A stretch of DNA of 64,000 nt from contig OZ024751.1 in assembly GCA_964016885.1 (NCBI GenBank), forward strand, positions 48,422,001-48,486,000, in the 5' to 3' direction. This document shows positions 15,736-53,770 of the stretch, one piece after another. A model generated the notes under the pieces. The model saw only the letters and a program-made list of their open reading frames with translations, ran no database searches and was not told the origin of the DNA. How positions within the stretch are numbered: the first letter of the stretch is position 1; every line of letters starts with the position of its first letter. Position numbers and translations under genes: made by a program. This DNA comes from Eledone cirrhosa (Eukaryota).

Positions 15736-17458
15736 CATACTCATCTACACTTATGAGAATGTATTGTTCAATACATTGAATGTTAATGTATGTGTGTGTA
15801 TATATACATATATATACATATATATATACTCACATATATATACACAGAATTATATACATAGATATGCACACACATATACATATATACATTTATATCCATA
15901 TATTTACATTAAAAATTTTATGATGTAGTTTCTATGAAATTTATTTGATTTGAGGTGTATCTATATATAATAGAGAAAGAGCGAGAGAAAGAAGGAAGTG
16001 AACCTATATATCCAAGCTATCTCGGCCTATACAAAATACGAAGACACACACACATACACATCCATACACACACGCACACACACATACACACACTCTCTCT
16101 CACACACATATACTGTAAATATCATTATTGAATAATGATAATAATAATGATAATTACAATAAAAGTAATTGGTAATGAAAATAATAACTAATAATAATAG
16201 TTATTATTATTCTAAAATATAGATTACTTATCAGTTGAAGTAATAATCCCATCAGAATATAATATATTTTTCAAAGATAGTGGAAATGATCCAATTATAC
16301 AGATCTGGAAATGAGAATACAAATAATCTCCTTAATTATACGTCTTTTTTGGAATTGTTAAAGGGATATAAACAAGTAGACAAATACATAACTGAAACTA
16401 GGGCTTAATTCTTCCGCTACCAAAACACCTGACACCACCTCATGACACAACACTATAAACAATTGCTTTGGACGTTTATGTCCAATTCTGTGATGGTCAC
16501 ATTTTTTTCTCATCCTTCCAGGGTCGATAAAATAAAGTACCAACCAAGAATTGAGGTCGACTAAACTAAATCCCGAAACAAATTAGGGTTTTGTGCTGAT
16601 AAAAGAAATTATATGGTGATAGAGTGGCAGAGTTTTGCGAGTGTGGAACAAACTACTTGCGATATTTTTTCCGGGTCTTGAATTTCTGAATTCAAATCTT
16701 AACCAAGTCAACTTTGCCTTTGATCAATCCCTACACCATAAAATAAAGATTTAGTAAAGTATTGATTTGATATAATTCACTTACCCCTTATTCCGAATTA
16801 CTGGTTTTGTTAGAAATAATTATTATTAAAGACAGTTGAATCTCGGACTAACATATTCAATACTACAGGGTGGGCCATAATTCAGGCTCACTTGATTATT
16901 TATGGGTCTATTAACACAAACTATTATAAAAGATTTGAATATGTGTAATAAGGCCAAGACAATGCAGGTATGGACATAGAAAAAAGAATGCAATAGTAAA
17001 AGATATTGTTGAGAATTTGTCTTTCACCTTGAATTTATTTAAATGTCCTTAATTTTCGAGATAATATCTCTTCTTCGGAGGGAAGTAAAGGTCTCAAACC
17101 AGCGTCTTAAATCTCTAGCCAAGCCATGCTGACCGGAAATAGTATAGAGTATCTGTTCTAACTCTAATATCAAAGAATTAAAATTAGGTGGATAAAGAGT
17201 AGTCTCCCTTTAAGAGGGGTTTGTTTAGGGTTTTTTTTTAATTTTTTTTTTTTTATTTTATATACGTGCCTGTATATGTGTGTGGGAGAATGCATGAAGG
17301 TGTAGGTATGTGGGTGTGTGTGTGTGAGTGTGGGAAGAAAGGTCTAATCGTAAAAGTGGGGGGTAGGTGTTATCTGGTGTTAGAACTGGTTTTGTGTGTG
17401 TATGTGTGAGAGAGAATAGGTGGAGGTGTAAGCGTGTGTGTGTGCTTCAGGAAGCTTC

Positions 17459-17938
17459 CTGAAGCTCCCACACTTCAGTGAAGAAATAACAACAGCCATC
17501 CGCAGAGCCATCAGACGAGAGGGACTGGATATCCAACCGGCCCACTCGGGTCCTTCTCTGCGCGGACGGATGGCCAAGAGACACTCCACCAGACATGACA
17601 ACTGCTGCAGACTAGCCAACTGCCCCATCAACGACACAGACCTATGCCACCAGGCTTACGTAGTATACAGACTAGAGTGTGACAAATGCAACAACTTCTA
17701 CGTAGGTAGCACCACCAGACCACTCCACATAAGAATAAAAGAACACCTCAATACTAACGCTTCCTCATTTAAGAAACACCTAGTTAAATGCAAAAACACC
17801 GATAAAAACAGAACAGTTAGGATAGAAACTAAGGAAAGAAACCTCGGCAATCTTAGAATTAAGGAAGCACTTATTATAGATAAAACACATCCTCCAATCA
17901 ATAATAGACTAGAGCTCAACACCCAATTTATAACCTGA
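17459..17938 (+). pseudogene. Penelope-like GIY-YIG endonuclease domain (C-terminal remnant of RT-EN ORF)
   Basis: Cys-rich linker then VVYRLECDKCNNFYVGSTTRPLHIRIKEH...KEALII...PPIN; RT domain absent. Confidence 0.9.
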
Positions 17939-18345
17939 TAGGGCCTCTAGCCCCATATTTACACACCCCACACACACTCACGCGCACACACACACGCTTA
18001 CACCTCCACTTATTCTCTCTCACACATACACACACAAAACCAGTTCTAACACCAGATAACACCTACCCCCCACTTTTACGATTAGACCTTTCTTCCCACA
18101 CTCACACACACACACCCACATACCTACACCTTCATGCATTCTCCCACACACATATACAGGCACGTATATAAAATTAACCCCCCCCCCCAACCCCCCCCTA
18201 AACAAACCCCTCTTAAAGGGAGACTACTCTTTATCCACCTAATTTTAATTCTTTGATATTAGAGTTAGAACAGATACTCTATACTATTTCCGGTCAGCAT
18301 GGCTTGGCTAGAGATTTAAGACGCTGGTTTGAGACCTTTACTTCC

Positions 18346-18379
18346 CTCCGAAGAAGAGATATTATCTCGAAAATTAAGG
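18346..18379 (+). ncRNA. Minimal pLTR hammerhead (U4C variant); inverted copy near 17045-17085
   Basis: cct-CCGAAGA-a-gagat(att)atctc-GAA-aatt-A-agg with palindromic stem III. Confidence 0.6.
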
Positions 18380-18620
18380 ACATTTAAATAAATTCAAGGT
18401 GAAAGACAAATTCTCAACAATATCTTTTACTATTGCATTCTTTTTTCTATGTCCATACCTGCATTGTTTTGGCCTTATTACACATATTCAAACGTTTATA
18501 CCTCATTACACAATGCTTCAAGTGAACTATAACCTCCTCCTATTATAAAAGAGTTAAGGAATATATCATATACAGGAATAAATTAAGAAATCTGCTAAGC
18601 ATATTAAGAAATAAAATAAT

Positions 18621-20791: not shown

Positions 20792-20864
20792 CCCCTCTCT
20801 CTCTCTCTGACCCCCTCTCTCTCTCTCTATATATATATATAATTATCTACCTATCTATCTATCT

Positions 20865-20976
20865 TTATTTTTATATATTGTTATTGCCTCCTCCTTATTG
20901 AGGACGCCTTGTTTTGTAAACTCCCCCCATTGTACTTGTTCCACTTTTGATGCCCTGGTGGCAAATAAAAGAAACA
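20865..20976 (+). mobile_element. Short 3'-end copy of the adjacent Tx1-like LINE
   Basis: Closely matches 23988-24098; (TATC)n on both sides. Confidence 0.85.
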
Positions 20977-21062
<86 letters not shown>

Positions 21063-23834
21063 GGCTATTCAGACCACAAATTAGTGACCTGCATGGTCAA
21101 CCTTGACAGAACTCATAGACAGGGCCCCGGTTACTGGAAGCTCAACTTGTCCTTGCCGGCAAGTAGAGCCTACAGGAATCGGATTAGTACGTTAGTTAAG
21201 GAACGGTTGACTGGAGCGATCGTCAACAGCAGGTGGTGGGTATCTCTAAAGAGAGAGATTAGAGTAGTCTCGATAGAATTTAGTAAGGTTCTAGCTGCGG
21301 ATAGGAATAGGAAGGAAAGGGAGCTAATAGATAGAGTAGAAGAGGCAATTAGAAGCGGCGACGTGGCCAGAGTGCTAGCGTCGAGAACGGCTTTGAGCCA
21401 GTTTTTCGACGCGAAGCACGAAGGCTGCGTTGTCCGAAGTAAAATACGTGCTCTAGGGAACGAGGGGACCAAAGCTGTTAGCTGGGCCCGCGTGACAGAG
21501 GCCAACAGTGGAACTAAATCCACCATCCGGTCTTTGCGAGACCTGGATGGACGGGCGATTCTTGAGCCTAAGCAGATGTGTGAGGCCTTTCAAAGGCACT
21601 TTGCCCGACTGTTCGGGAGGGGCGGGGAGCCGGTTGGGAACGTGGACTTCGGTCCATACCTCGACGGCCTGCCGCGCCTCTCGGACAGGGAGGCGAAGTC
21701 CTGCGAAGAGCCGATTTCGGCCGCTGAGATAGAGGACGTGCTGAGCCAATGCGGCAAACGCAAATCCCCGGGTCTCGATGGTCTTCCTTACGAATTATAT
21801 CTAGCTATGCCGGACTTGTTCCCCGATCTCCTCGAGGCGGTCTACTGCAACTGGCAACAGAACGGGAGAATTCCCTGTACTGTGACCAAGGGCGTAGTCA
21901 CGCTAGTGAGGAAGGACGAGAACAAGGGGGACGAAATAAGTAACTTCAGGCCCATAACACTGCTAAATACAGAGTTACAGATTTTGGCCAAGGTGCTAGC
22001 AAAGAGGTTGGCGCTTGTCGTGGGCAACCTGGTGGGAGATGCGCAGACATGCGCTATCCCGTCCAGGTCCATCCATGACAACCTCCACCTCATGCGATAC
22101 ATCATAGAGAGGGTTGGGAACGAACCCGGCTTTGGTGGGGCTCTGATCAACTTGGATCAATCTAAGGCGTTCGATAGGGTCGACCATGGTTACCTGGATG
22201 CGGTGCTAGCGGCGGCAGGCTTCGGACCCGTTTTCAGGGGCTGGATCACTGCTATGCACAGCAGCCGCATCTGCTCTAGGGTCAAGGTGAACGGCTACCT
22301 CTCGGAGCCGTTCAAAATCGCGCGGTCCATCCGACAAGGGTGCCCTCTCTCCTCCCTTCTGTATGTGTTGACTCTCGAGCCACTACTGCGGAAGTTGGAG
22401 TTGTTGCAGGGCATCCCTTTGGAACCGGGATTGCGGAAAGCGGTGTCGGCCTACGCCGATGACGTGACAGTAATGGTGTCGACGGCCTCCGAAATCGAGG
22501 CGGTCGGCACCTTACTGGAGGAGTACGAAAAGTTCACAGGGGCTAAGCTGAACCGGGACAAGTCGATCGGTTTGCAACTCGGCACGTGGAGGGGCAGACC
22601 GATGCCCTCCGATAGCGTCGTCGGACGCTGGACGGAGGGCCCGGTGAAGTTGCTCGGGGTCTGGTTCGGACCGGACCTCCAGGTGGAGAAAAACTGGGCG
22701 GAGGTTACGAACAGGGTGTTTGCACTGACCCAGAAGTGGGCCAGTTGCAAACTATCCCTGAAAGGCCGGGCGGAGGTGGCGAACACCTACATAGCGTCCG
22801 TCATCTACTACCGCCTGACCGTAGTGCCCTGCCCAAGGGAAACCCTCACCAAGATGGAGCGCGCGCTCTTCCAATTCCTTTGGAAGAGGCGGGCTCCTAT
22901 GGTGAGGAGATCCATCTGCTGTCAACACCCTTCGAAAGGAGGGCTGGGGATGCCGTGGCTAATGATGCGTAAACACGCATTAAGGCTACGGCACCTCTAC
23001 GTATTCCTCACCGGACAACCGGTGTGGGCCTCGTTTGTGAGACGAACCTTTCCCAGACTCGTCTCACTCACCGAGCTGCAATCCTGGGTCAAGCAAAGAC
23101 CGAGAAAACTGGGCGCCTGGCACACTGAGTGTGCCCAGGCGCTCACCGCCCTCTGGCAGGCGGATCCGGTTATCAGTGGAGACTCCACCGCAACATTCTA
23201 TAGAGGGCTAGTACGCAGCAGGTGCGACGACGCCCTCGGAGAAGCCCTAGACATGGAGGAGGACGAACTGGCCAGCCTGTTCGGTAGGACATTCAGCCCG
23301 GGACCTATGGACAACTTCCAGAAGTCCCTGGCCTGGCAGTGCTACCGAGGGGCTTTACCCGTTCGAGAAAGGCTCTACAGACACGGGCGCCCGGGTAGGG
23401 ACCCCGCCAAAAAGATCTGTCCCAGATGCGTGTGCGACGAGGAAACCGTTGCACACGCATTAGTACACTGCTCGGGCGTAGCCGATCTGTGGGGCTATGT
23501 CGAACAACTGCTGTCAAGGGTGGGACCGATCCGGTTGACCACCGAGTCTATTGTAATGATCAAGCCGCCTCCCCCCTTCAAAGATGAAGCAGAGGCGGTG
23601 TTTCTGTGCGTAATAGCCATGGCGAAAGAGGTTGTATGGTGGACGCGTCTGAAAGGACTGAGGTCGGGCACCTTTCTCTCTGGCCAACAACTGGTCCGTT
23701 TCTTCCGATATCATTTCGGAAGAAGGATCAGGATGGAGAGAGAGGTGCTGCACCCCAGCCGTTTCTATGAAAGATGGGTGAAAGTGGCGAGAATGGCCCG
23801 TGTGAATGGGCCTTCACTCTACATCAGACTATAG
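21063..23834 (+). CDS. LINE ORF2 remnant: APE C-terminus, reverse transcriptase, zinc knuckle (no native start)
   Basis: SDH and GPGYWKLN; KSPGLDG, FRPITLLN, DQSKAFDRV, RQGCPLS, YADD; CPRC..ETVAHALVHC; no internal stops; the listed ORF start at 20898 is microsatellite read-through. Confidence 0.88.
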   Translation, partial: GYSDHKLVTCMVNLDRTHRQGPGYWKLNLSLPASRAYRNRISTLVKERLTGAIVNSRWWVSLKREIRVVSIEFSKVLAADRNRKERELIDRVEEAIRSGDVARVLASRTALSQFFDAKHEGCVVRSKIRALGNEGTKAVSWARVTEANSGTKSTIRSLRDLDGRAILEPKQMCEAFQRHFARLFGRGGEPVGNVDFGPYLDGLPRLSDREAKSCEEPISAAEIEDVLSQCGKRKSPGLDGLPYELYLAMPDLFPDLLEAVYCNWQQNGRIPCTVTKGVVTLVRKDENKGDEISNFRPITLLNTELQILAKVLAKRLALVVGNLVGDAQTCAIPSRSIHDNLHLMRYIIERVGNEPGFGGALINLDQSKAFDRVDHGYLDAVLAAAGFGPVFRGWITAMHSSRICSRVKVNGYLSEPFKIARSIRQGCPLSSLLYVLTLEPLLRKLELLQGIPLEPGLRKAVSAYADDVTVMVSTASEIEAVGTLLEEYEKFTGAKLNRDKSIGLQLGTWRGRPMPSDSVVGRWTEGPVKLLGVWFGPDLQVEKNWAEVTNRVFALTQKWASCKLSLKGRAEVANTYIASVIYYRLTVVPCPRETLTKMERALFQFLWKRRAPMVRRSICCQHPSKGGLGMPWLMMRKHALRLRHLYVFLTGQPVWASFVRRTFPRLVSLTELQSWVKQRPRKLGAWHTECAQALTALWQADPVISGDSTATFYRGLVRSRCDDALGEALDMEEDELASLFGRTFSPGPMDNFQKSLAWQCYRGALPVRERLYRHGRPGRDPAKKICPRCVCDEETVAHALVHCSGVADLWGYVEQLLSRVGPIRLTTESIVMIKPPPPFKDEAEAVFLCVIAMAKEVVWWTRLKGLRSGTFLSGQQLVRFFRYHFGRRIRMEREVLHPSRFYERWVKVARMARVNGPSLYIRL

Positions 23835-28942: not shown

Positions 28943-29099
28943 TCAGCAACAGCAAGAATGATAATAAAAACAATAAAATAATAAACACCGCACAATCAAT
29001 AAGTAAAATACAAGAAACATGAAAATATATAGAATAAAAAATAAGAAATAAATAAACGTGAAGATTAGGAAAGAAAACAGTTTAACAAATAAAAATAAC

Positions 29100-29205
29100 A
29101 TACAATAATAATAACAACAACAACAATAATAATAATAATAATAATAATAACAATAATAACAACATCAACAACAATAATAATAATGATAACAATAACAACA
29201 ACAGC

Positions 29206-29241
<36 letters not shown>

Positions 29242-29249
29242 AATAATAA

Positions 29250-29293
<44 letters not shown>

Positions 29294-29316
29294 TTAATAA
29301 TAATAATAATAATAAT
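29100..29316. repeat. (AAT/AAC)n microsatellite
   Basis: Compound run immediately 5' of the R4/Dong element. Confidence 0.95.
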
Positions 29317-32032
29317 ATCCTCAAAGCAACAGCAAATACGGTGAGGAAACTACTTGGTATAAAAGCGAGAGGAAACAACAGACAAGAAAGAGCAGAGCCG
29401 TGGTGGAAGAAGCGACTGAGTGGGCAAATCGGGGAAATGAGAAATGACATAGGAAAGCTTGAGTCACTACTGAATGGGACACTAAAAAACATAGGCACTA
29501 AAAATAGGCTGGAAATAAAACACAAAACTAGGAGGAAAAAGCTAAATATTATCATAGAGGAACTGAAGCAACGCATTGTAGCAAAGAGTGCAAAAATCAG
29601 GCGATACGAGAACAGAGTCAGTCAGTATAAACAGAACCGCATGTTCGACAACAACCAGAAGATGCTGTTTGGACAGCTTGAGGGGAAAGAAAGAGGCAAC
29701 GACTTGATCCCTGGGGCGGAGCAAACTAACACATTCTGGAGAGGAATATGGGAGCAGGATGTTAGACACAATGCCCAGGCAGGGTGGATTGAGACAGTAC
29801 AGAGGGAGATCGGTGAGCAGGCACAACAACAAACTGATTTGAGTATCACAGTTGAAACTCTTAAGGGGCAGGCCAAAAAACTAACCAACTGGAAATCACC
29901 AGGCCCAGATGGTGTGCAGGGGTATTGGATTAAACATTTAACATCCCTCCACCCGAAGCTGACGGCCATGTTCAATGACTGCTTGGTGTCGGGTGAGGTG
30001 CCAGAGTGGTTGACAAAAGGTACCACAGTTCTGATAATGAAAGACCGAATCAAGGGTAATGATGTTACCAACTATAGACCTATCACATGTCTGTCCGTAA
30101 TGTGGAAACTGTTGACGAGCATTGTGTCTGAGGAAATCTACCATCACCTCCACACAAACAACTTGTTACCGGACGAACAGAAAGGATGCCGAAAGAAGTC
30201 ACGTGGTACAAAGGACCAGTTACTTATTGATAAGATGGTAATGGGGAATTGCAGGAGGAGACACACTGATCTTGCCATGGGATGGATAGACTACAGAAAG
30301 GCATTTGACATGGTGCCTCATTCCTGGATCACCAAAAGCCTGGAGATCTTCAGGGTGGCAGATACCATCAGACAGTTGCTAGGCAGGAGTATGGGGTCCT
30401 GGGAGACAGAGTTGACATCAACTGGAGTATCCTTGGGAAGCGTGAAGATCAAGAGAGGTATCTTCCAGGGAGATAGCCTGTCCCCTCTGTTGTTTGTCCT
30501 TGCCCTGATGCCCTTGACCATTATGCTGCGAAAAGTGAGAGCAGGATACAAGTTGGGAAGGGGAGAGCTTACCATCAATCACCTCCTCTTCATGGACGAT
30601 CTTAAGCTCTTCGGGAAAAGTGAGAAGGAGTTGGATGTGCTTGTTGACACTGTCCGTATTTTCAGCAGTGATATATGTATGCAGTTTGGTATTGGTAAAT
30701 GTGGAGTCATTGTGATGAAGAGGGGTAGGTTGAGCAGAAGTAACGGGATCCAGATACCAACAGGTGAGATGATAAAGGAAATTGACTCTGTGGAAGGATA
30801 CAAGTATTTGGGCGTTCTGGAGGCTGATGGCATAAAGAACAAAAAAATGAAGGAATTGTTAAGAACTGAATACATTCGGAGAGTAAGGAGCGTATTGAAG
30901 TCACATCTGAACAGCAGAAATGCCATAAGCGCAGTAAATTCCCGAGCTGTGTCTATTATTAGGTACAGTGCGGGAATTCTGAGATGGAATGTTGCTGAAC
31001 AAAAAGAAATGGATAGGAAGACTAGGAAGCTATTGACTATCTACAACATGTTCCACAAGAGGAGTGATGTCGATAGACTCTACCTAAGGAGATCTGAGGG
31101 TGGAAGAGGTCTTATCAGCATAGAGGACTGTGTTCAGATGGAGAAAAACAACCTATACAAATACGTGACCTATAGTAAGGAGCCAATGCTCAGAACTGTA
31201 CTGAAGGAGGGGACAGTAGGCCAGGGGATGTCCAAGGAGGAAATAACATCAAGGAGGAAGAGCAGCCTTAAGGGAAAATCCCTTCATAGTACCTTCTTTG
31301 AGAAAACTGAATTTAGAGATCCACAGACATGGAACTGGTTGAGAAGAGGAGACCTCAAAAAGGCTACAGAAGGAATGCTAATGGCTGCGCAGGAGCAGGC
31401 CCTCAAAACGAAGTGGTTGAAGCACCATATCTACAAGGAGGAGGCTAGCCCACTGTGCAGGATCTGTGGAGAGAGAGAGAGAGGAGACTGTGGCTCACAT
31501 TGTGTCCGAGTGTAAACACCTAGCACAGACCCACTATAAGGGCTGGAGACACGATGTGATGGGCAGGGTGATCCACTGGCACCTGTGCAAAGTAAACAAT
31601 TTACCACATTCTGAGAAATGGTATGAGCATAGGCCAGAGGCGGTGATGGAGAACAATCAGGTGAAGGTGCTGTGGGATTTTAGGATACAGACGGACAAAA
31701 AACTGGAACACAATAGACCTGACCTGGTGGTTGTGGACAAAGAAAAAAGATCGTGTCTGGTTGTGGATGTGGCCTGCCCGTTCGACACGAGAGTGCAAGA
31801 GAAGGAGAGGGAGAAAATTAACCGATACCAGGACCTAAAGTGGGAGGTGAAAAGGATTTGGAACTGCCATGAAGTCAAAGTGATCCCGATTGTCATAGGC
31901 GCACTGGGGACTATCTCCAAAAGTTTCCAGGGATGGTTAAAGAAAATCGGCCCCTTCACGCTTTTTGGAACGCTTCAAAAGGCATGCTTGCTTGGAACAG
32001 CAAGAACCCTCCGATACGTCCTGAATATCTGA
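29317..32032 (+). pseudogene. RT-RLE polyprotein with one frameshift near 31470-31483
   Basis: WKSPGPDG, YRPITCL, DYRKAFD, GIFQGDSLSP, FMDDLKL; CRICG/EETVAHIVSEC, RHD, PDLVVVD..LVVDVACP, KINRYQDL; joins ORFs 29341-31515 and 31466-32032. Confidence 0.88.
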
Positions 32033-49993: not shown

Positions 49994-50446
49994 TGTGTGA
50001 GTGTGTGTGTGTGTGTTTCTGTGTGTTTCTGTGTCTGTGTGTGTGGTGGGTATGGGGGAGGATCTTGGTTGGTTTAGGTTTACTATATTTGCTTATTTTT
50101 ACTCGTGGCTGGGGTTATGAAAAAATATTAAAAAAAAATTATATATATATGCCGAATTCGGAGGATGGGTCACGGTTTGGTTTGGCAGGAGCCAGAGTCA
50201 CGAGGGCAGGCTAGCGTTCGGTTTATGGTGCTTTACTAATTGTTTCTGGAGTGATTGGAGCAATAACCTTCTTATTTACTTTATATATTCTCTCGTCTGA
50301 AGGGAAGTCTTTGCTATGAAGGAAGAAGGTCTCTGGTCTGAAGAGAGGTCTTTGTAATGAAAGGAGGTCTCTGGATGATATATATATATATATATATATT
50401 GCTTCACCATTTTGTTTGTTTACCCTCGCGTCCCCTTTATTTACGT

Positions 50447-50548
50447 GTCCCAACGACTTTTTTTAGCCGTTGCTCACACCAACCGGAGGTATATGGTCTT
50501 TAAAGCGATGAAATGCCTATGATGGTTGGAAGATCACTGATGAAGGAC
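50447..50548 (+). ncRNA. Candidate non-circularly permuted (pseudoknotted) hammerhead ribozyme, copy 1
   Basis: aggtat-A-tggtctt (50487-50500), GAA-atgcct (50510-50518), aagatca-CTGATGA (50530-50543); extra helices ccaacc/ggttgg and gtcc/ggac; lies in a ~200-bp insert (50400-50600) in (TA)n. Confidence 0.6.
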
Positions 50549-50596
50549 AAACTTTTTTCATATGTAACCCATTTGCAACTCCGCAGCGCCCTTATT

Positions 50597-50891: not shown

Positions 50892-51332
50892 TATTGAGTT
50901 TATGTTGGTTGTATACCAACACCTCAGTATGCAGGCTGGAGCACTCGACGAAGTGCGCAGTTTGGTTTGGTTACTCCGGAGTAATGTAAAATAAAGTTAA
51001 ATAAAAGTCAAATGATTAAAATTTAGCTTCGTTTATTACTGCTATATATATTTCAGTGACAGCCATCTTTGGCTGTGACCTCTTCAGGCAGTCCGAATTA
51101 GTATGGTATAGACAAGTACATATGTTGTTTAGGTGTATAATATTGTCAATACTCTGATATGCCCAGTTCCTTGTTGGGTTGTTATTTCACTGAGGAACTG
51201 GAGTCATATGACTCCAGTTCCTCAGTGAATTAACAGCCTGAAGAGGTCACAGCCAAAGATGGCTGTCACTGAAATTTATATAGCAGTAATAAACGAAGCT
51301 AAATTTTAATCATTTGGCTTTTATTTAACTTT
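50892..51332 (-). mobile_element. Inverted-repeat mini-element with a hammerhead in each arm
   Basis: Arms 50993-51089 and 51236-51332; internal 44-bp perfect palindrome 51186-51229; tail 50892-50992; in (TA)n. Confidence 0.8.
51038..51092 (-). ncRNA. Type I hammerhead ribozyme; second copy at 51233-51287 (+)
   Basis: actgc-CTGAAGA-ggtcacagcca(aaga)tggctgtcact-GAA-atatatat-A-gcagt. Confidence 0.85.
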
Positions 51333-52762: not shown

Positions 52763-53066
52763 CTAACCCTAACCCTAACACTGACCCCAACCACAACCAT
52801 AGCCCTAACCCCAACCCTAACCCTAACCTTAACCCTAACCCTGACCCTAATCCTAACCCTAAACCTGTCCCTAACCGTAACCGTAACGCTAACCCTAACC
52901 CTAACCCTAACCCTGTCCCTAACCGTAACCGTAACCGTAACGCTAACCCTAACCCTAACCCTAACCCTGTCCCTAACCGTAACCGTAACCGTAACGCTAA
53001 CCCTAACTCTAACCCTAACCCTGTCCCTAACCGTAACCGTAACCCTAACTCTAACCCTAACCCTAA
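52763..53066 (-). repeat. Interstitial telomere-like (TTAGGG)n with variant hexamers
   Basis: About 50 hexamers of CCCTAA, CCGTAA, CGCTAA, CTCTAA, CCCTGT on +. Confidence 0.85.
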
Positions 53067-53122: not shown

Positions 53123-53179
<57 letters not shown>

Positions 53180-53184
<5 letters not shown>

Positions 53185-53770
53185 CTATTTTTATCATATG
53201 TAACCCATGTGCAACGACGCAGTATTCTTTCTTCTCATGTTTTTTATACATATTTACCTCGGCTGCGTTTGTCTGTTTCTCTCTTACTGCTTCCCCGCTC
53301 TCTCTGTTTCTCTCACCTTCTTTCGCCTCCCTCTGTCAGTTACACTTTCTCTCGACTGACCTCTTCCTCGCACTTCCACTCACTCACTCTCTGTTTCTCC
53401 CCTTCTCACTTCCTCCCGTTTGGCTTGTAGTGGGTTCTCTTCCTGCTCACATCTCACTCATGTCGGATGGTCTGTATATCGCTCTCGCTCATGAAATCCA
53501 CCCAGCTTATGCTGACCGGATAACCATGTTGCTTGTTTTTTCCTATTTTTGCGTAGTTTTCATCCTTCTATGTTGTTTACTTGTCTCCCTCGCTTTACGC
53601 GATTTACTTGTCCCAATAGCTTTATTTAGTTATTGCTCGCACCAACCTGAGGTATATGATTTTTAATGCGATGATATACCAATGAAGGTTGGAAAATCAC
53701 TGACGAAGGACTATTTTTATCATATGTAACCCATGTGCAACCACGCAGTATTCTTTCTTCTCATGTTTTA
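53180..53770 (+). mobile_element. ORF-less element with ~60-bp terminal direct repeat (526-bp period) in (TA)n
   Basis: gactatttttatcatatgtaacccatgtgcaac...ctcatgtttt at 53183 and 53709; 3' part homologous to 50400-50600. Confidence 0.8.
53610..53711 (+). ncRNA. Candidate non-circularly permuted hammerhead, copy 2
   Basis: aggtat-A-tgatttt (53650-53663), GAt-atacc (53673-53680), aaaatca-CTGACGA (53693-53706); compensatory changes relative to copy 1. Confidence 0.55.

What the first reader, a model, noticed from the sequence alone, without database searches (positions are those of the whole stretch)
53180..53770. ORF-less 526-nt unit carrying the permuted hammerhead, inserted as about 1.1 copies in (TA)n
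Seen: the first ~60 nt (53183) recur at the end (53709), the unit has no credible ORF, and both flanks are (TA)n. The core here has GAtA for GAAA, so this copy may be dead. Established: metazoan non-LTR retrozymes are short HHR-containing tandem units that yield circular RNAs and are thought to use Penelope-like machinery. Inference: terminal redundancy is what reverse transcription past the junction of a circular or multimeric RNA would leave, making this a retrozyme family built on an unusual ribozyme.
Basis: partly seen in the sequence, partly recalled or inferred. Interest (0 to 1): 0.78.

Follow-up and report, generated by a model that had tools for sequence, protein, structure and literature searches.

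The report
Rewired hammerhead ribozyme in animal retrozyme
This is one probably dead copy of a non-coding jumping repeat, present in thousands of copies in this animal genome and likely moved by a Penelope-type retrotransposon, that carries a predicted self-cutting hammerhead RNA wired in a scrambled order which I found described only in environmental RNA data; cutting is untested.

Summary
In detail: a 526-nt unit plus a 64-nt repeat, between (TA)n tracts. It belongs to a group of non-coding 470-630-nt repeat families with over 11,000 exact motif matches in the genome. Copies end at two fixed 3' sites, are 5'-truncated, form tandems and inverted pairs, and are sometimes joined directly to one Neptune-like Penelope element: the signature of Penelope-type mobilisation. 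The hammerhead blocks lie in the non-circular order S-G-C (type SGC of Eckert 2023, there found only in metatranscriptomes). Across 20 subfamily representatives the core is invariant and all helices covary. Unlike published SGC ribozymes, stem II has one pair capped by a four-way junction, and a conserved kink-turn links stem III to an extra helix. GATA for GAAA is private to this copy, which has only one ribozyme, so it is likely dead. Not shown: cleavage, expression, circles. A circular template is not required, since Penelope RT starts internally on tandem RNA. The scan noted a rearranged hammerhead in a Penelope-like element in another genome (e1-7354453, unchecked).

The parts
53125..53179 (.). 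left (AT)n target tract
53180..53243 (+). 5'-truncated remnant of an upstream unit (copy of the last 64 nt of the unit; holds no ribozyme)
53244..53769 (+). one full 526-nt unit of family A, phased to the fixed 3' end; 68% pyrimidine; 93-96% identical to the best other copies
53610..53613 (+). helix P5, 5' strand (pairs with 53708-53711); predicted
   Evidence: helix 1: 92.5% paired, 2 of 4 pairs change on both sides
53614..53635 (+). hairpin P6 (53614-53620 with 53629-53635); predicted
   Evidence: helix 2: 90% paired, 4 of 7 pairs change on both sides
53637..53641 (+). helix P7, 5' strand (pairs with 53667-53671; stands in for the outer part of stem II); predicted
   Evidence: helix 3: 91% paired, 3 of 5 pairs change on both sides
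53642..53647 (+). helix P4, 5' strand (pairs with 53687-53692); predicted
   Evidence: helix 4: 6 of 7 pairs change on both sides; also in the single-sequence fold
53648..53650 (+). kink-turn, non-bulged strand (3n, G2n, A1n); predicted
   Evidence: GA/GA in 156 of 162 distinct motif copies
53651..53663 (+). hammerhead block S: stem III strand 53651-53654, U16.1 53655, H17 53656, predicted cut between 53656 and 53657, stem I strand 53657-53663
53667..53672 (+). helix P7 3' strand (53667-53671) and nucleotide 11.1 (53672, pairs with 53707)
53673..53680 (+). hammerhead block G: GAAA box (here GATA, private change at A14, 53675) and stem III strand
53681..53686 (+). kink-turn, bulged strand: 3-nt bulge, G1b, A2b, 3b; predicted
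53687..53692 (+). helix P4, 3' strand
53693..53707 (+). hammerhead block C: stem I strand 53693-53699, CUGAnGA box 53700-53706, nucleotide 10.1 53707
53708..53711 (+). helix P5, 3' strand
53712..53769 (+). 3' region: position of the short 3' end of relatives (about 53722), an AC-rich motif shared by all families (53738-53748), and the long 3' end; likely the two RT start sites
   Evidence: PMC11167929
53770..53789 (.). right (TA)n target tract
50400..50590 (+). 5'-truncated copy of sister family B (617-nt unit) with an intact core; young, 99-100% identical to copies on other chromosomes

Best explanation
This is a single, probably inactive copy of a non-coding tandem retro-repeat (retrozyme-like) that is likely copied into (TA)n tracts by the reverse transcriptase and endonuclease of a Neptune-like Penelope element, and whose unit carries a predicted hammerhead ribozyme in the non-circular S-G-C order. 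Shown in DNA: families of 470-630-nt units, two fixed 3' ends, 5' truncation, tandems, inverted pairs, direct joints with the Neptune-like element, an invariant hammerhead core and covarying helices. Inferred: tandem source loci are transcribed; the partner protein nicks (TA)n and starts reverse transcription at one of two internal sites downstream of the ribozyme; cDNA runs upstream through one or more units and stops, often at an AT-rich stretch that pairs with the target, which left 1.12 units here. Inferred for the RNA: P4 bends back at a kink-turn and, with P7, clamps the tops of stems I and II, doing the job of the usual loop I-loop II contact; intact tandem copies would cut to monomers whose ends stay clamped and could close to circles. 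Whether the RT template is such a circle or the uncut tandem RNA is open; I put it near even, slightly towards tandem RNA.
For: Family size: 4158, 2004, 1738, 1831 first-look candidates, overlapping between families; 11,069 matches, control 0; 718, control 0. Ends: 30 of 30 family A loci share the 3' end, 5' ends spread, 1.1-2.3 units; 14 short + 95 long of 112 terminal copies. Inverted 5'-truncated copies lacking the last 32 nt in 3 of 30 family B loci, the 'tail' hallmark of Penelope-like elements (PMC8557442, PMC11167929). Partner: RT followed by CxxxxCxxC linker and GIY-YIG-type domain, ending in (TA)n; joints without (TA)n in L047/L166, L131/L165, L161, via a 100-nt spacer in L136/L137, and 90 nt of its 3' end in front of a family A copy in L021/L022; no such joint with six other Penelope-like references. 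Fold: 90.7% of 720 cells paired, 23 of 36 pairs change on both sides, slid controls 31-48% paired; stems I, III and the one-pair stem II alone 94.2%, with four pair types at 10.1:11.1. Core invariant in 20 of 20 representatives except A14 of this copy; N7 and H17 vary as hammerheads allow. Families F1/F2 keep the order with different stems. Kink-turn consensus in 156 of 162 copies. One-pair stem II has an active precedent (PMC3088659).
Against: No cleavage, expression or circle data: no RNA run was listed. The motif fails the published SGC descriptor, which needs G10.1-C11.1 plus at least two more pairs, and Rfam finds no hammerhead. The 10.1:11.1 pair is A.C in both F representatives, and position 10.1 varies within family E; F lacks the standard kink-turn. 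The representatives are related, so covariation counts overstate independent events, and I derived the structure from these same sequences. 5' ends are not clearly enriched at the cut site beyond TA microhomology. Within family A the core is not clearly better conserved than the rest (1.9% vs 3.3%). Units share only short 3' motifs, not long homology, with the partner. loci were chosen by full-length similarity, which favours the long 3' end. For a related Penelope element, hammerhead cleavage was not needed for insertion in vitro (PMC11167929).
Confidence: 0.7

Rival explanations
1. True rolling-circle retrozyme: the ribozyme makes monomers that close to 470-630-nt circles, and the partner RT copies round the circle, giving 1.1 to many units (the first reader's model; a sub-case that differs from the best explanation only in the template).
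For: Ribozyme kept in every family although insertions read through it intact; units within a locus are closer (2.8% A, 2.0% B) than between loci (4.9%, 2.9%); animal retrozymes with type I hammerheads do make circles (PMC7229834).
Against: Tandem arrays of at least 54 units exist as templates; one polymorphic site differs between upstream and downstream unit in the same direction in 3 loci (weak); predicted circles are only 40-44% paired, unlike the highly self-paired published circles; internal RT start explains the ends without a circle (PMC11167929).
Confidence: 0.4
2. The fold is real but no longer (or not by itself) catalytic: a hammerhead-derived scaffold kept for binding the partner RT or a kink-turn protein.
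For: Stem II is one non-G-C pair in most families; no clear cut-site signature in 5' ends; hammerhead cleavage dispensable and protein-assisted in a Poseidon element (PMC11167929); 8 of 9 predicted Xenopus retrozymes did not cut in vitro (bioRxiv 10.64898/2026.07.22.740005).
Against: All catalytic positions are invariant while every helix turns over, and H17 is A or C in the representatives (F1 read by eye because MAFFT shifts it), which is the pattern expected of selection on cleavage.
Confidence: 0.2
3. The units are detached pseudo-LTRs (UTRs) of a coding Penelope-like element that itself carries this ribozyme and that I did not sample.
Against: The Neptune-like copies read to their 3' end carry a canonical type I hammerhead; 0 of 30 GIY-YIG loci had the motif within 1.5 kb; units repeat head to tail with no coding part.
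Confidence: 0.12
4. A plain satellite or SINE-like repeat with a chance hammerhead look-alike.
For: Rfam gives no hammerhead match; long arrays exist.
Against: Covariation in all eight helices and an invariant 13-nt core across families that share little else; descriptor silent on shuffles; dispersed, target-specific insertions.
Confidence: 0.03

Closest known systems
Type-SGC hammerhead ribozymes (HRIMA-1 and variants; Eckert et al. 2023, PMC10085705)
   Same: Block order S-G-C, full catalytic core, stem I joined to the stem II strand by a short linker, an extra helix next to the 5' strand of stem I.
   Different: There: metatranscriptome RNAs only, none in genomes of known organisms, stem II of three or more pairs starting G-C, and the extra helix closed by sequence downstream of block C. 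Here: animal nuclear retro-repeat; stem II is one pair topped by a four-way junction (P5, P6, P7) built from upstream sequence; P4 is closed by a strand upstream of block S and joined to stem III through a kink-turn.
Animal non-LTR retrozymes (Cervera and de la Pena 2020, PMC7229834; Li, Clavereau and Pollet 2026, bioRxiv 10.64898/2026.07.22.740005)
   Same: Non-coding tandem and solo units with one hammerhead each, dispersed and in arrays, coexisting with Penelope-like elements.
   Different: Defined by type I hammerheads and (2020 paper) 170-400-nt highly self-paired circles; here SGC order, 470-630-nt pyrimidine-rich weakly paired units, circles not shown, no long homology to the partner's pseudo-LTR.
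Neptune-clade Penelope-like elements and their non-autonomous derivatives (PMC8557442; mechanism PMC11167929)
   Same: (TA)n targeting, 5' truncation, partial tandems, inverted 5'-truncated copy, 30-45-nt optional tail.
   Different: No coding capacity; canonical elements carry type I hammerheads. Clade assignment of the partner rests on domain order and linker motif, not on a tree.
Kink-turns of box C/D and U4 type (PMC5061560, PMC4382518)
   Same: [quoted passage not shown]
   Different: Embedded between stem III and P4 of a hammerhead; I found no natural example in one search (listing only). [quoted passage not shown]

Membership tests
Hammerhead ribozyme | Core C3 U4 G5 A6 N7 G8 A9, G12 A13 A14 A15.1, U16.1 H17 | tested here: met
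   19 of 20 representatives; this window's copy fails at A14
Hammerhead ribozyme | Stems I and III flanking the core, with covariation | tested here: met
   stem I 91% paired, 5 of 7 pairs two-sided; stem III 99%, 2 of 5
Hammerhead ribozyme | Pair at 10.1:11.1 (stem II) | tested here: inconclusive
   paired in 18 of 20 with four pair types, unpaired in family F, only one contiguous pair
Hammerhead ribozyme | Site-specific self-cleavage | not testable with these tools
   no bench data, no RNA reads
Type-SGC hammerhead (Eckert 2023) | Non-circular block order S-G-C | tested here: met
   53651-53663, 53673-53680, 53693-53707
Type-SGC hammerhead (Eckert 2023) | Stem II: G10.1-C11.1 plus 2-6 further pairs (published search descriptor) | tested here: not met
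   descriptor read; one pair, mostly not G-C
Type-SGC hammerhead (Eckert 2023) | Helix joining the sequence before stem I with the sequence after stem II | tested here: not met
   the strand before stem I pairs upstream (P4) and the strand after block C pairs upstream (P5)
Animal non-LTR retrozyme | Non-coding tandem units, one ribozyme per unit, multi-copy | tested here: met
Animal non-LTR retrozyme | Type I hammerhead | tested here: not met
   order is S-G-C; no Rfam hammerhead match
Animal non-LTR retrozyme | Highly self-paired circular RNA expressed in vivo | not testable with these tools
   no RNA holder listed; predicted pairing only 40-44%
Non-autonomous element moved by a Penelope-like element | 5' truncation, fixed 3' ends with optional 30-45-nt tail, inverted 5'-truncated copies | tested here: met
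Non-autonomous element moved by a Penelope-like element | Coexisting coding partner with the same target and chimeric insertions | tested here: met
Non-autonomous element moved by a Penelope-like element | Derived from the partner's pseudo-LTR (long homology) | tested here: not met
   only short shared 3' motifs
Kink-turn | 3-nt bulge then G.A and A.G pairs between two helices | tested here: met
   156 of 162 copies of families A-E; not in family F
Kink-turn | Kinked conformation, binding of L7Ae/15.5K | not testable with these tools
   needs bench work

The most novel reading that the evidence does not exclude
An active hammerhead of an undescribed four-block topology (S-G-C order, stem II split by a four-way junction, closed into a cage by a kink-turn) has spread to over ten thousand places in an animal genome on circular-RNA retrozymes, and in the subfamilies with a U.U kink-turn its folding is switched on by the host's 15.5K/Snu13 protein: a natural protein-gated ribozyme.
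Probability: 0.3. Interest if true: 0.9.

Novelty: new variant of a known kind. Interest (0 to 1): 0.76.

Why it matters
Non-circularly permuted RNAs were known from metatranscriptomes with unknown hosts. A genomic, high-copy, still young example in an animal gives a clonable system with natural covariation, and shows that type I-based searches miss a whole layer of retrozymes. The kink-turn offers an answer to the geometric puzzle the discoverers left open (how the far end of stem III reaches the stem I-II contact) and a testable link between a host RNA-binding protein and ribozyme activity. The chimeric insertions name a specific coding partner, which bears on the open question of how animal retrozymes move and whether circles are intermediates or by-products.

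Tried and rejected
Rfam: no hammerhead match on the window or the element; the only hit on the element is a weak snoRNA match at E 0.34. RNA evidence: no RNA holder listed; two runs laid were contigs of unknown kind and add only that A at 53675 is the general state. Cut-site test: counted by eye on the first 100 rows of each search; 10 of 23 loci start at a place compatible with the cut site, but that place is TATA-like; in the other group 7 of 30 are compatible and 7 of 30 start at a nearby TAA microhomology: inconclusive. First idea that GATA is compensated by a downstream stretch: rejected, other copies have GAAA with the same downstream sequence. The window's own Penelope-like family (17.4 kb) as partner: it also ends in (TA)n but shows no direct joint; not excluded, only unsupported. 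Coding role of the 161-codon frame: rejected. No covariance model was built, so distant families in this genome may be missed. Literature: 'type-SGC' + hammerhead gave only Eckert 2023; non-circular permutation + hammerhead + retrotransposon since 2023 gave 3 papers, none describing this (one read, one passages, one listing only); octopus/cephalopod + Penelope + hammerhead/ribozyme gave nothing relevant; kink-turn + hammerhead + natural + L7Ae showed no natural case in its listing. Subscription papers, Repbase/Dfam and bioRxiv supplements were not searchable and may already hold these repeats.

Full report
Observation. The stretch 53180-53769 lies between (AT)27.5 and about 20 nt of (TA)n. Its first 64 nt recur 526 nt later. 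There is no credible protein: a 161-codon stop-free frame has no Pfam match and is not kept in other copies. The hammerhead boxes are there, with GATA for GAAA at 53673-53676. The genome is a 3.0-Gb animal assembly; I suspect a mollusc from recall, untested.

The family. The best 40 of 4158 candidates were scored and 30 loci fetched. All 30 end at the same 3' place followed by (TA)n, while 5' ends vary and copies hold 1.1 to 2.3 units; this set is biased to full-length matches. Sister families with the same motif but largely different bodies were found: B (617 nt, 99-100% identical copies, one at window 50400), C (494-499 nt, one array of at least 54 units in 32 kb), D, E (718 exact matches) and F. 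A pattern over blocks S and G has 11,069 exact matches, control 0. For the eight commonest motif types, 14 terminal copies end 18-23 nt and 95 end 59-79 nt after the CUGA box, 3 elsewhere, and 61 run on into another unit. Three of 30 family B loci carry an inverted, 5'-truncated copy that lacks the last 32 nt.

How it moves. Two 3' ends 30-45 nt apart, 5' truncation, partial tandems, inverted copies and microsatellite targets are the described marks of Penelope-like elements (PMC8557442, passages read). For a Poseidon element, RT was shown to start at two internal sites of a tandem RNA near an AC-rich stretch, which creates the tail, and hammerhead cleavage was not needed (PMC11167929, abstract and results read). 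All families here keep an AC-rich motif between their two ends. The genome holds a Neptune-like element with intact 820-aa frames (RT, cysteine linker, GIY-YIG-type end), its own canonical type I hammerhead and (TA)n ends. It is joined head to head, with no (TA)n between, to motif-bearing units in L047/L166, L131/L165 and L161 (the last found through the protein), through a 100-nt spacer in L136/L137 (one event duplicated), and 90 nt of its 3' end sit directly in front of a family A copy in L021/L022. Among 185 loci with these families, no TA-free joint was seen with six other Penelope-like references, most of them partial. I read these as template switches by one enzyme (inference). The units share only short 3' motifs with the partner, unlike Xenopus retrozymes, which resemble pseudo-LTRs (bioRxiv 10.64898/2026.07.22.740005, parts 1-3 of 5 read).

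The ribozyme. The blocks lie in the order cleavage site (53651-53663), GAAA box (53673-53680), CUGAnGA box (53693-53707): type SGC of Eckert et al. (PMC10085705, main text and two supplement parts read), who validated it in vitro and found it only in metatranscriptomes. I picked 20 representatives by eye from the subfamilies seen and aligned them. Stems I and III and a single pair at 10.1:11.1 give 94.2% paired cells and 8 of 13 pairs with two-sided change. Four more helices covary: P4 beyond stem III, P7 pairing the strand before GAAA with upstream sequence, P5 pairing the strand after CUGAnGA with sequence further upstream, and hairpin P6; the whole gives 90.7% paired and 23 of 36 two-sided pairs, against 31-48% when slid. 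Relatedness inflates these counts and the structure came from these sequences, but family F keeps the order with different stems I, III, P4, P6 and P7. The catalytic positions are invariant except A14 in this copy; N7 and H17 vary. So stem II is one pair under a four-way junction, and P7, P4 and stem I meet in a second junction. The published SGC descriptor requires a longer G-C stem II, which explains why such a motif would have been missed; a one-pair stem II held by an outer helix has an active precedent (PMC3088659, passages read).

The kink-turn. The loop between stem III and P4 is a 3-nt bulge followed by G.A and A.G in 156 of 162 distinct copies of families A-E, with a covarying pair next to it. 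That is the standard kink-turn, which bends a helix to about 50 degrees (PMC5061560, abstract in listing). It would let P4 fold back to the tops of stems I and II, answering the geometric doubt Eckert et al. raised for their own motif (inference). The 3b.3n position is U.U in 95, U.G in 32 and A.G in 17 of 162. By the published rule, 3n = G allows folding in metal ions, Watson-Crick pairs do not, and box C/D turns need L7Ae-family protein (PMC4382518, passages read); that U.U is the box C/D pair is recalled. Family F lacks a standard kink-turn.

This copy. A14 is changed only here (26 of 27 others have A), its 3b.3n is A-U, and the duplicated 64 nt hold no second ribozyme, so it could not release a monomer. 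It is likely a dead insertion.

Circle or tandem. Units within a locus are closer than between loci, which fits both. Long arrays exist, one site differs by unit position in three loci (weak), predicted circles are 40-44% paired, and 5' ends are not clearly tied to the cut site. Published animal retrozymes do form circles (PMC7229834, parts 2-3 of 6 read). No RNA data were available. The point stays open.

Verdict. The element works like a non-LTR retrozyme moved by a Neptune-like element, but fails the type I criterion; the ribozyme has the SGC order but fails two features of the published SGC type. I class it as a new variant of known kinds. My searches found no report of a non-circularly permuted hammerhead in an animal genome or with a kink-turn; closed literature and repeat libraries were not searchable. 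Earlier scan notes gave no match by sequence or place but one note on another genome mentions a rearranged hammerhead in a Penelope-like element. Interest 0.76, held back by the lack of any cleavage or expression evidence.

Noticed in passing
window 16990-18540: Inverted pair of 5'-truncated copies of a second, very abundant young Penelope-like family (GIY-YIG at 17432-17938; 26,323 candidates; intact 900-aa frames elsewhere). Its 3' region has a type I hammerhead look-alike with CCGAAGA in place of CUGAnGA, in both copies read.
   Followed up: partly
L136 4770-4865, L014 about 1028, L162 about 5927: A further element with a canonical type I hammerhead whose CUGA box and following 7 nt are identical to block C and P5 of family D; a possible relative or source of block C, not tested.
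   Followed up: no
L004, L010, L039, L140, L142 and others; decayed inverted pair at window 51030-51290: Another abundant repeat family with a canonical type I hammerhead, often in inverted pairs; probably an ordinary non-LTR retrozyme.
   Followed up: no
window 52763-53066: Interstitial degenerate telomere-like array (CTAACC)n, about 50 copies, 60 nt left of the insertion.
   Followed up: no
window 20811-23834 and 29086-32032: Two long LINE-type reverse transcriptase frames (1007 and 809 codons stop to stop), by eye; not scanned.
   Followed up: no
L335-L364: At least five more Neptune-like Penelope families with C-terminal GIY-YIG domains; some end in (TA)n and show no canonical hammerhead within 1.5 kb.
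   Followed up: partly
G000:C3:67674000-67706000 (L102-L105): Array of at least 54 family C units, most with small private differences, ending at the fixed 3' end in (TA)n; its 5' end was not reached.
   Followed up: partly
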